DNA of 64,000 bases from an uncultured Chloroflexia bacterium (GTDB lineage Bacteria > Chloroflexota > Anaerolineae > Anaerolineales > E44-bin32): positions 78,612 to 142,611 of the forward strand of contig CAWBME010000006.1 of NCBI GenBank assembly GCA_963789825.1, written 5' to 3'. Shown in pieces: positions 1,008 to 1,490 of this stretch (its first letter is position 1; the number at the start of each line of letters is the position of its first letter). Below the pieces are notes generated by a model. The model was not told the DNA's origin. It saw only the letters and a list, made by a program, of their open reading frames with translations, and did no database searches. A program made the translations under genes and the position numbers.

Positions 1008-1490
1008 ATGCGAGAAGGAATCCATCCGAAGTACAACCCGCAGGCAACGGTGATTTGTTCCTGCGGCAACACCTGGCACACCGGCTCGACGGACGACGTT
1101 ATCCGCACCGACGTGTGTTCCAAATGCCATCCGTTCTACACCGGCGAGCAGCGCATTGTGGACACCGAGGGCCAGGTCGACCGCTTCTACAAGAAGCTTC
1201 AGGCGCGCCAGGAATACCTGGGCGACGTGGAGGCCCGCGAGGCATCCCGCACCTCGCCCGACCTTCCGATCGCCGAGCTCGAGCTTGGCGGCCGCGCCGA
1301 GAACGCCCTCAAGGCGGCCGGCATCGGGAACGTCGGCCAAGCGATCGCCCGCCTGGAACAGGCCGGCGACGAGGGGCTGCTGCAGATCGATGGCTTCGGG
1401 CGCAAGAGCCTGGCGGATCTCAAGCGCCGCCTGCGGGCGCGCGGCTTCAGCCTGCCTGAGGAAAGCCCGGCCGGGGAGCTGGCTTCGTAG
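1008..1490 (+). CDS. rpmE: 50S ribosomal protein L31 (Zn-ribbon type) fused to an RNA polymerase alpha-CTD-like HhH domain
   Basis: Residues 1-65 (MREGIHPKYNP..CSCGNTWHTGS..CSKCHPFYTGEQRIVDTEGQVDRFYKK) are L31; residues ~85-150 (LELGGRAENALKAAGIGNVGQ...DGFGRKSLADLKRRLRARGFSL) resemble RpoA alpha-CTD. Confidence 0.85.
   Translation: MREGIHPKYNPQATVICSCGNTWHTGSTDDVIRTDVCSKCHPFYTGEQRIVDTEGQVDRFYKKLQARQEYLGDVEAREASRTSPDLPIAELELGGRAENALKAAGIGNVGQAIARLEQAGDEGLLQIDGFGRKSLADLKRRLRARGFSLPEESPAGELAS

What the first reader, a model, noticed from the sequence alone, without database searches (positions are those of the whole stretch)
1008..1490. Ribosomal protein L31 fused in frame to an RNA polymerase alpha-CTD-like domain
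The first ~65 residues are an unmistakable Zn-ribbon L31. With no stop, the ORF continues into ~70 residues (PIAELELGGRAENALKAAGIGNVGQAIARLEQAGDEGLLQIDGFGRKSLADLKRRLRARGFSL). This matches the helix-hairpin-helix signature of RpoA alpha-CTD (LELSVRSANCLK..I..VGDL....EL....N.GKKSL.EI...L...GL.L). A strong terminator follows at 1526-1559. A ribosomal protein carrying a DNA/UP-element or transcription-factor docking module would be an unusual physical link between ribosome and transcription machinery.
Basis: partly seen in the sequence, partly recalled or inferred. Interest (0 to 1): 0.55.

Follow-up and report, generated by a model that had tools for sequence, protein, structure and literature searches.

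The report
Ribosomal L31 carrying RNA-polymerase alpha-CTD copy
In this Anaerolineae (Chloroflexota) bacterium and its whole order, the only gene for ribosomal protein L31 is fused to a conserved copy of the small DNA- and factor-binding end domain of the RNA polymerase alpha subunit, so every ribosome should display that domain, but what it binds is untested.

Summary
Window 1008-1490 (+) is one 160-aa ORF. It holds a complete zinc-type bL31 (residues 1-66), a short linker, an RNA-polymerase alpha-CTD domain (85-150) and an acidic tail. It ends an rplU-rpmA-rpmE operon with a clean terminator.

It is not an assembly error:
- It is the genome's only L31 gene.
- All 67 L31 genes found in 71 genomes of the same order are full-length fusions.
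- The added half is under purifying selection (dN/dS 0.07-0.19).

The module is a paralogue of the lineage's own RpoA alpha-CTD. They are 48% identical and share a 3-residue insertion. That insertion was seen in every Anaerolineae RpoA sampled and in none of 26 RpoA from other Chloroflexota classes.

The module keeps the equivalents of E. coli R265, G296, K298 and S299. It has lost the constraint on N268.

Sister lineages carry the same module on ribosomal proteins S16 and L21, on NusA, inside beta-prime and on sigma-4 or HTH proteins.

Function is inferred only. My best guess is a tethered nucleic-acid or partner-binding arm on the 30S head. A link to transcription is possible but unshown.

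This scan has already found the same fusion on at least eight other genomes. I found no paper describing it.

The parts
26..55 (+). sigma-70-like promoter candidate upstream of rplU (TTGACC, 18 nt spacer, TAGAAT)
   Evidence: a consensus match only
151..630 (+). rplU (bL21), 159 aa, with a ~55-aa Ala/Lys/Pro-rich C-terminal tail; first gene of the operon
   Evidence: the Ribosomal_L21p match ends at residue 102; same gene order in relatives
655..909 (+). rpmA (bL27), 84 aa
1008..1490 (+). rpmE::alpha-CTD fusion gene, 160 aa plus stop; the only L31 gene of the genome
1008..1205 (+). bL31 type A domain (residues 1-66) with zinc ligands C17, C19, C37, C40
   Evidence: the four Cys are invariant in 34 sequences; Foldseek matches T. 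thermophilus bL31 at 63-65% identity
1206..1259 (+). end of the L31 C-terminal segment plus linker (residues 67-84); predicted to belong to a long helix spanning 50-81; S83-P84 nearly invariant
1260..1457 (+). alpha-CTD-like helix-hairpin-helix domain (residues 85-150), a paralogue of the lineage's RpoA alpha-CTD
1458..1487 (+). short acidic, poorly conserved tail (residues 151-160), predicted disordered
1525..1561 (+). intrinsic terminator ending the rplU-rpmA-rpmE operon

Best explanation
SHOWN. This gene is the organism's single bL31, and it is a genuine, ancient in-frame fusion. It consists of a canonical zinc-type bL31, a ~14-residue linker, a folded alpha-CTD domain and a short acidic tail. 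The added domain was copied from the RNA polymerase alpha subunit within the class Anaerolineae: it carries the same 3-residue insertion between the two helix-hairpin-helix motifs that marks the RpoA alpha-CTD of this class. It has since been kept under purifying selection in every member of the order examined.

INFERRED. In solved ribosomes the C-terminal part of bL31 lies on the 30S head, where it contacts uS13 to form bridge B1b. Each ribosome here should therefore display one alpha-CTD-like domain on a short tether at the top of the small-subunit head. The domain keeps the residues that contact the DNA backbone and minor groove in E. coli alpha-CTD (R265, G296, K298, S299 equivalents) and keeps E261. 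It has lost the constraint on N268 and K271.

My best reading is a low-specificity arm that binds duplex nucleic acid, or a partner that normally recognises alpha-CTD. The most attractive target is DNA or the transcription complex next to a translating ribosome. The same module was also grafted onto bS16, bL21, NusA, beta-prime and sigma-4/HTH proteins in sister lineages. That favours a location-independent ligand over a purpose-built ribosomal contact.

I put the architecture and origin at about 0.97. The stated confidence applies to the functional part.
For: - Fusion is real. It is a single ORF with both Pfam domains above cut-off. It is the only PF01197 hit in the genome. The same 160-aa ORF occurs in independent assemblies at 86-95% identity with identical gene order.
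- Fixed in the order. In 71 genomes of the order, 67 have L31, and all 67 matches span both domains with one hit per genome.
- Wider occurrence. 46 named loci carry it, all titled Anaerolineae, Anaerolineales or Anaerolineaceae, or by a broader Chloroflexota-level name.
- Selection. dN/dS for the alpha-CTD part is 0.07-0.19, against 0.06-0.07 for the L31 part.
- Fold. The AF2 model has mean pLDDT 75. Its C domain superposes on the E. coli alpha-CTD chain 8y5t_A2 with TM 0.82 and rmsd 1.5 A over 64 columns.
- Origin. The module is 48% identical to the genome's own RpoA alpha-CTD, E 1e-16, against 36% to the NusA module. The insertion is present in all 20 Anaerolineae RpoA sampled and in 0 of 26 RpoA from other Chloroflexota classes. 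It is also absent from every alpha-CTD in the PDB.
- Contact residues in 121 relatives: R265-eq 119 R, G296-eq 121 G, K298-eq 121 K, S299-eq 120 S, E261-eq 118 E.
- Module promiscuity. S16 and L21 fusions are confirmed by Pfam and form families in the large protein database. The beta-prime copy is nested inside Rpb1 domain 3. Tandem arrays with Sigma70_r4 also occur.
- bL31 position. Review PMC10931766 states that the N-terminal domain contacts uL5 and the C-terminal part contacts uS13.
Against: - There is no direct evidence for any ligand.
- The N268 equivalent is invariant in the RpoA of this class (16/16) and, from established E. coli work, is critical for UP-element binding. It varies freely in the L31 module (N in 14 of 121). 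Canonical UP-element recognition is therefore unlikely.
- The L31 module is roughly neutral in charge, and the S16, NusA and beta-prime modules are acidic. That argues against simple nucleic-acid binding for those copies.
- bS16, bL21 and bL31 sit at different places on the ribosome. A single defined ribosome-polymerase geometry cannot explain all three fusions.
- R265 and the GxKS hairpin could be conserved for a protein contact rather than a nucleic-acid one.
Confidence: 0.42

Rival explanations
1. Purely ribosomal role. The helix-hairpin-helix domain docks on rRNA or proteins of the 30S head or central protuberance. It reinforces or tunes bridge B1b and head swivel, or stabilises the ribosome, with no connection to transcription or DNA.
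For: bL31's C-terminal part already works at the 30S head. The tether is short, ~14 residues. HhH motifs bind nucleic-acid backbones in general, and the backbone-contact residues are the ones conserved while the base-reading N268 is not. Lineage-specific ribosomal-protein extensions are common; this genome's own bL21 has a basic tail.
Against: The same module was moved onto bS16 and bL21 at other ribosomal sites, and within one genome between S16 and L21 (sister modules, support 99/90). A site-specific structural contact would have to be reinvented each time. The module's other hosts are all transcription proteins (RpoA, NusA, beta-prime, sigma-4, HTH). The S16 copies are acidic, which is unlike rRNA-binding extensions.
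Confidence: 0.3
2. Assembly or regulatory role off the mature ribosome. The module recruits free r-proteins (bL31, and bS16 or bL21 in sister lineages) to the rRNA-transcribing polymerase or NusA complex for co-transcriptional ribosome assembly. Alternatively, it serves autoregulation of the operon.
For: bS16 and bL21 are early-assembly proteins (established knowledge). NusA in this order carries a related module. The operon lies directly downstream of rpoC in this lineage.
Against: bL31 is a late, loosely bound protein. No conserved leader structure was found upstream of rpmE (no Rfam hit; fold z-score -0.93; poor conservation). There is no partner evidence.
Confidence: 0.12
3. Artefact or neutral relic. 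An indel in this metagenome-assembled genome merged two genes, or the extension is a decaying, functionless appendage.
For: The genome is a 13-contig, 90%-complete assembly, and its nusA does look frameshifted.
Against: Identical architecture appears in 67 of 67 L31 genes of the order and in independent assemblies. dN/dS is well below 1. The hydrophobic core and glycine positions are invariant across 34 to 121 sequences.
Confidence: 0.02

Closest known systems
Canonical bacterial bL31 type A (zinc-binding RpmE; E. coli 70 aa, T. thermophilus 71 aa)
   Same: Residues 1-66 match the family over its whole length, above the equivalog cut-off. The four zinc cysteines are present. The predicted fold matches T. 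thermophilus bL31 at 63-65% identity. It is the sole L31 of the genome.
   Different: It is more than twice as long, with a folded 65-residue domain added after the segment that normally ends the protein at the 30S head.
C-terminal domain of the RNA polymerase alpha subunit (alpha-CTD, Pfam PF03118; e.g. PDB 1LB2, 8Y5T)
   Same: The Pfam hit is above cut-off. The module is 48% identical to the genome's own alpha-CTD and shares its class-specific 3-residue insertion. The predicted fold is within 1.5 A. The R265, G296, K298, S299 and E261 equivalents are kept.
   Different: It is attached to a ribosomal protein rather than to the alpha N-terminal domain. The N268, C269 and K271 equivalents are not conserved. 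In domain trees it falls outside the RpoA clade (97/94).
Other alpha-CTD-like modules of Anaerolineae: bS16 and bL21 fusions, the NusA C-terminal module, the beta-prime insertion, and sigma-4 or HTH fusions
   Same: Same module, with the same insertion in most copies. The two ribosomal fusions are likewise C-terminal add-ons after a linker.
   Different: The host proteins and ribosomal positions differ. The S16, NusA and beta-prime copies are acidic, whereas the L31 copy is about neutral. They occur in different families of the class; no genome sampled had both the L31 and the S16 fusion.
NusA acidic repeats AR1/AR2 of E. coli (HhH domains; AR2 binds alpha-CTD, PDB 2JZB)
   Same: A small double helix-hairpin-helix domain appended by a linker to a protein of the gene-expression machinery.
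   Different: The L31 module is not acidic. It is closer in sequence to RpoA alpha-CTD than to the NusA module of the same genome. No binding to NusA could be supported here.

Membership tests
bL31 type A (RpmE) | Full-length match to the L31 family models above curated cut-offs | tested here: met
   PF01197 97.6 bits (cut-off 27); NF000612 96.9 bits (cut-off 70); TIGR00105 85.4 bits
bL31 type A (RpmE) | Four zinc-ligand cysteines (CxC ... CxxC) | tested here: met
   C17, C19, C37 and C40 are present and invariant in 34 aligned fusion proteins
bL31 type A (RpmE) | Serves as the ribosome's L31 (no other copy; incorporated in the 50S central protuberance and bridge B1b) | tested here: inconclusive
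   It is the only L31 gene in the genome, and there is one per genome in 67 relatives. Physical incorporation is not testable with these tools.
RNA polymerase alpha-CTD (PF03118) | Sequence match to the domain model above the gathering score | tested here: met
   39.3 bits for the whole protein and 41.3 bits for the C half, against a cut-off of 23.8
RNA polymerase alpha-CTD (PF03118) | Compact helical fold with two helix-hairpin-helix motifs | tested here: met
   AF2 predicts helices 88-91, 95-103, 109-119, 121-125 and 132-144. Foldseek matches the E. coli alpha-CTD chain 8y5t_A2 with TM 0.82 and rmsd 1.5 A.
RNA polymerase alpha-CTD (PF03118) | Tethered to the alpha N-terminal (assembly) domain, and so part of RNA polymerase | tested here: not met
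   The N-terminal partner is bL31. The genome has a separate complete rpoA with its own CTD.
RNA polymerase alpha-CTD (PF03118) | Complete '265 determinant' for UP-element DNA (R265, N268, C269, G296, K298, S299 in E. coli numbering) | tested here: not met
   The R, G, K and S equivalents are 98-100% conserved. The N268 equivalent is N in only 14 of 121, and the C269 equivalent is mostly A. The window's own protein happens to have N99.
RNA polymerase alpha-CTD (PF03118) | Binds DNA, sigma region 4, activators or NusA | not testable with these tools
   Needs biochemistry.
NusA AR-type acidic HhH repeat | Strongly acidic HhH domain at the C-terminus of NusA | tested here: not met
   Net charge of the L31 modules is about 0 (range -2 to +2), against a mean of -3.5 for the NusA modules. 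The host protein is bL31.

The most novel reading that the evidence does not exclude
Anaerolineae have built a lineage-specific physical network between translation and transcription out of copies of one polymerase domain. Alpha-CTD paralogues displayed on the ribosome (on bL31 in this order; on bS16 or bL21 in sister families), together with copies on NusA and inside beta-prime, would bind DNA or each other. They would hold translating ribosomes on the transcribing polymerase or nucleoid. This would be a coupling device different from the NusG-uS10 bridge of E. coli.
Probability: 0.22. Interest if true: 0.85.

Novelty: new variant of a known kind. Interest (0 to 1): 0.6.

Why it matters
bL31 forms the protein bridge between the large subunit and the swivelling head of the small subunit. 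Alpha-CTD is the polymerase's general-purpose docking domain for DNA, sigma, activators and NusA. A ribosome that permanently carries a copy of that domain is a natural experiment on how translation and transcription can be wired together.

That holds for a whole bacterial order common in sediments, sludge and soils. Sister lineages achieve something similar through S16 or L21.

If the domain turns out to bind rRNA instead, it is still an undescribed structural variant of the bacterial ribosome. It would also be a clear case of a folded domain duplicated from polymerase and recruited into the ribosome. Either outcome can be tested directly with a cultivated member and standard biochemistry or cryo-EM.

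Tried and rejected
- Complex prediction. I tested the L31 module (residues 71-160) against the NusA N-terminal domain plus the NusA C-terminal HhH module, all supplied with alignments. The score was 0.00 and there was no verdict. This counts neither for nor against binding.
- Sequencing reads. Independent assemblies served instead.
- Regulatory leader upstream of rpmE. There was no Rfam match in 1-3000. The fold z-score was -0.93. Conservation was poor beyond close relatives. I dropped this idea.
- Literature. Five full-text searches found no description of an L31 alpha-CTD fusion. A 2024 review of bL31 functions does not mention it.
- Several independent origins of the L31 fusion. The maximum-likelihood tree of 63 modules puts the L31 modules in three places. 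However, the AU test does not reject a single L31 clade (p 0.47, only 66 columns). The number of origins stays open.
- Mutual exclusion of the L31 and S16 fusions. No genome of 201 had both, but only 0.8 would be expected by chance. This is not informative.
- One apparent fusion (G335) was a read-through of a stop codon into the next gene and was discarded.
- I recalled that a polymerase alpha-CTD touches a 30S protein in an E. coli expressome structure. I could not confirm this in the papers I opened, so I did not use it.

Full report
WHAT IS THERE

Window 1008-1490 on the + strand is a single 160-codon ORF with an ATG start and a TAG stop. It is the third gene of a compact unit:
- a sigma-70-like promoter candidate at 26-55;
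- rplU at 151-630;
- rpmA at 655-909;
- this gene;
- an intrinsic terminator, with an 11-bp stem at 1525-1551 followed by a T-rich run.

In close relatives the same unit follows rpoC and precedes tdk, hpt and the CCA-adding enzyme gene.

Pfam places Ribosomal_L31 on residues 1-64 (97.6 bits) and RNA_pol_A_CTD on residues 79-143 (39.3 bits, cut-off 23.8). The C half alone scores 41.3 bits. NCBIfam calls the N half an L31 equivalog. The C half aligns only to the last ~80 positions of the rpoA equivalogs.

IS IT REAL?

The genome (13 contigs, 3.35 Mb, 90% complete) has exactly one L31 gene, and this is it. It also has a normal 324-aa rpoA with its own alpha-CTD.

- The 120 best database relatives are 154-185 aa (most 154-165) and 69-95% identical. 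All but one carry both Pfam domains.
- Independent assemblies from other samples encode the same 160-aa protein in the same gene order.
- I sampled 71 genomes of the same order, covering 18 families. Of these, 67 have an L31 match, and every one of the 67 covers both domains, with a single hit per genome. The four genomes without a match are 85-88% complete.
- Across the class the fusion occurs in about 27 of 201 sampled genomes, in 11 families.
- Elsewhere in the phylum, L31 matches only over its first 65-90 residues.
- Forty-six full-length loci in named records are all titled Anaerolineae, Anaerolineales or Anaerolineaceae, or by a broader Chloroflexota-level name. One is Candidatus Villigracilis.
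- Against relatives at 86-93% protein identity, the alpha-CTD part has dN/dS of 0.07-0.19. The L31 part has 0.06-0.07.

An assembly artefact or a decaying appendage is excluded.

ANATOMY

An AlphaFold model built on a 34-sequence alignment (mean pLDDT 75) shows four parts:
- the L31 beta-sheet (residues 10-34);
- a long helix (50-81);
- a five-helix domain (88-144);
- a disordered acidic tail (153-160).

Foldseek matches the N part to bL31 of solved ribosomes (T. thermophilus, 63-65% identity). It matches the C part to an E. coli alpha-CTD chain with TM 0.82 and rmsd 1.5 A over 64 columns.

Canonical L31 ends at about residue 70 of this protein, so the true linker is only about 14 residues long. 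S83-P84 before the domain are nearly invariant.

WHERE THE MODULE CAME FROM

The module is 48% identical to the genome's own RpoA alpha-CTD (E 1e-16). It is 36% identical to a related module at the C-terminus of NusA.

All alpha-CTDs in the PDB align with a 4-residue gap between the two helix-hairpin-helix motifs. The genome's own RpoA has a 3-residue insertion there (consensus E-K-G-x-E), and the L31 module shares it.

That insertion is present in all 20 Anaerolineae RpoA sequences I extracted. It is absent from all 26 RpoA sequences from other Chloroflexota classes. The L31 module is therefore a paralogue of the class-specific RpoA alpha-CTD, not an ancient or foreign helix-hairpin-helix domain.

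In trees of 50 and 63 modules the RpoA domains form one clade (94/93 and 97/94), and all accessory modules lie outside it. The L31 modules fall in three places in the best tree. The AU test does not reject a single L31 clade (p 0.47), so the number of origins is open. This window's module belongs to the main group.

AN UNEXPECTED CONTEXT

I scanned one genome per family of the class for PF03118, translated the hits and ran Pfam on the key ones. The same module turns up in several other hosts:
- at the C-terminus of ribosomal protein S16 in three genomes;
- at the C-terminus of ribosomal protein L21 in one genome;
- on NusA in many genomes;
- nested inside domain 3 of beta-prime;
- on an HTH protein;
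- in three copies ahead of a sigma-70 region 4.

The S16 fusion is a large family in the protein database: all 120 best hits carry both domains. The L21 fusion is a small family of 26 clusters.

Within one genome the S16 and L21 modules are each other's closest relatives (99/90). This shows the module moving between ribosomal proteins.

A search of 1.84 billion representatives with the module alone returned 607 hits. They include proteins with 2-11 tandem copies, some with Sigma70_r4. Earlier notes of this scan also report an S16 fusion, and an S2 fusion in Dojkabacteria. I did not test the S2 case.

WHAT THE CONSERVATION SAYS

I derived E. coli numbering from the aligned ranges: query residues 87-150 against E. 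coli 256-315, with a 4-residue insertion. Counts among the 121 closest fusion proteins are:

| E. coli position | Residue in this protein | Conservation in 121 fusions |
|---|---|---|
| R265 | R96 | 119 R |
| G296 | G131 | 121 G |
| K298 | K133 | 121 K |
| S299 | S134 | 120 S |
| E261 | E92 | 118 E |
| N268 | N99 | 14 N |
| K271 | K102 | mostly A |

N268 is N in 16 of 16 RpoA of the class.

From established E. coli work, R265, N268, C269, G296, K298 and S299 make up the DNA-binding determinant, with R265 and N268 the most critical. E261 contacts sigma region 4.

The face that touches the nucleic-acid backbone is thus under strong constraint in the L31 module. The base-reading asparagine is not. 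This fits low-specificity duplex binding, or a protein contact through the same face. It argues against classical UP-element recognition.

The L31 modules are about neutral in charge. The S16, NusA and beta-prime modules are acidic.

MECHANISM

According to the review read, bL31 contacts uL5 in the central protuberance through its N-terminal domain. It contacts uS13 in the 30S head through its C-terminal part, forming bridge B1b.

Each ribosome here should therefore carry one alpha-CTD-like domain on a ~14-residue tether at the top of the 30S head. My best-supported reading is a tethered arm that binds duplex nucleic acid or an alpha-CTD partner. DNA or the transcription complex is the most attractive target. 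Two facts point that way:
- every other host of the module is a transcription protein;
- the module has been recruited to three different ribosomal sites.

The main rival is a purely ribosomal structural contact with the 30S head. A third possibility is recruitment of r-proteins to the rRNA transcription complex during assembly. Nothing I could compute separates these. The one complex prediction I ran gave no verdict and is listed only among the things tried.

NOVELTY AND STANDING

Databases name these proteins simply '50S ribosomal protein L31', and the domain pair is visible in precomputed Pfam annotations. Five full-text searches found no paper that describes the fusion. A 2024 review of bL31 functions does not mention it either.

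This scan has already flagged the same fusion on at least eight other genomes, with follow-ups reaching similar conclusions. My session adds four results:
- the order-wide fixation count;
- the class-specific insertion that dates and sources the module;
- the contrast between conserved backbone-contact residues and the unconstrained N268 equivalent;
- the demonstration that S16, L21 and beta-prime carry the same module in sister lineages.

I rate it a new variant of a known kind: a known ribosomal protein with an undescribed, conserved accessory domain.

Noticed in passing
L022:673-1218 (-), L023:696-1259 (-), L028:645-1187 (-): In three other families of the same class, ribosomal protein S16 carries the same alpha-CTD-like module at its C-terminus (Pfam S16 plus RNA_pol_A_CTD). 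In the large protein database this is a big family: all 120 best hits have both domains.
   Followed up: yes
L024:380-919 (+): Ribosomal protein L21 is fused to the alpha-CTD-like module in one class genome, as part of a small family of 26 clusters. Its module is the sister of the S16 module of the same genome (99/90), so the domain was copied between two ribosomal proteins.
   Followed up: yes
L049, L050, L051 (fragments of ~1520-1560-aa ORFs): In some Anaerolineae families the alpha-CTD-like module is inserted inside domain 3 of the RNA polymerase beta-prime subunit (the Pfam Rpb1_3 match is interrupted by RNA_pol_A_CTD).
   Followed up: partly
L003:1090-3037 (-), own genome contig C7: The genome's nusA is split into two overlapping ORFs of 333 aa and 319 aa, at the start of the second KH domain. 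All 23 relatives in the order have one ORF of about 600-690 aa. This is probably a frameshift error in the assembly, or a pseudogene.
   Followed up: partly
alignment A3 (NusA of the order); P0122 residues 118-190 and 290-319: NusA of this order carries several additions after the KH domains: a long helical linker, an alpha-CTD-like HhH module, an acidic low-complexity stretch, a poly-lysine run, and a conserved terminal motif (YDPD.G..V.KRKRKR...WD..W) of unknown role.
   Followed up: no
window 151-630 (+): bL21 is 159 aa. The L21 domain ends at about residue 102, followed by a ~55-aa Ala/Lys/Pro-rich basic tail. Many Chloroflexota L21 homologues are similarly long (156-221 aa) without an alpha-CTD.
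   Followed up: partly
L197:68-520 (-): One class genome (G250) has an L31 alpha-CTD fusion whose L31 part lacks all four zinc cysteines. It is a zinc-independent L31 carrying the same module.
   Followed up: partly
L029:422-940 (+); L052:230-1300 (+); P0364-P0382: Other hosts of the module are an XRE-type HTH protein, a protein with three modules ahead of sigma-70 region 4, and metagenomic proteins with 2-11 tandem modules. One of these is an RpoA with two CTDs.
   Followed up: partly
window 1524-2153 (+): The longest tdk ORF starts at a TTG inside the rpmE terminator. The start that fits the 190-aa thymidine kinase of relatives is the ATG at 1581, 90 nt after the L31 stop.
   Followed up: partly
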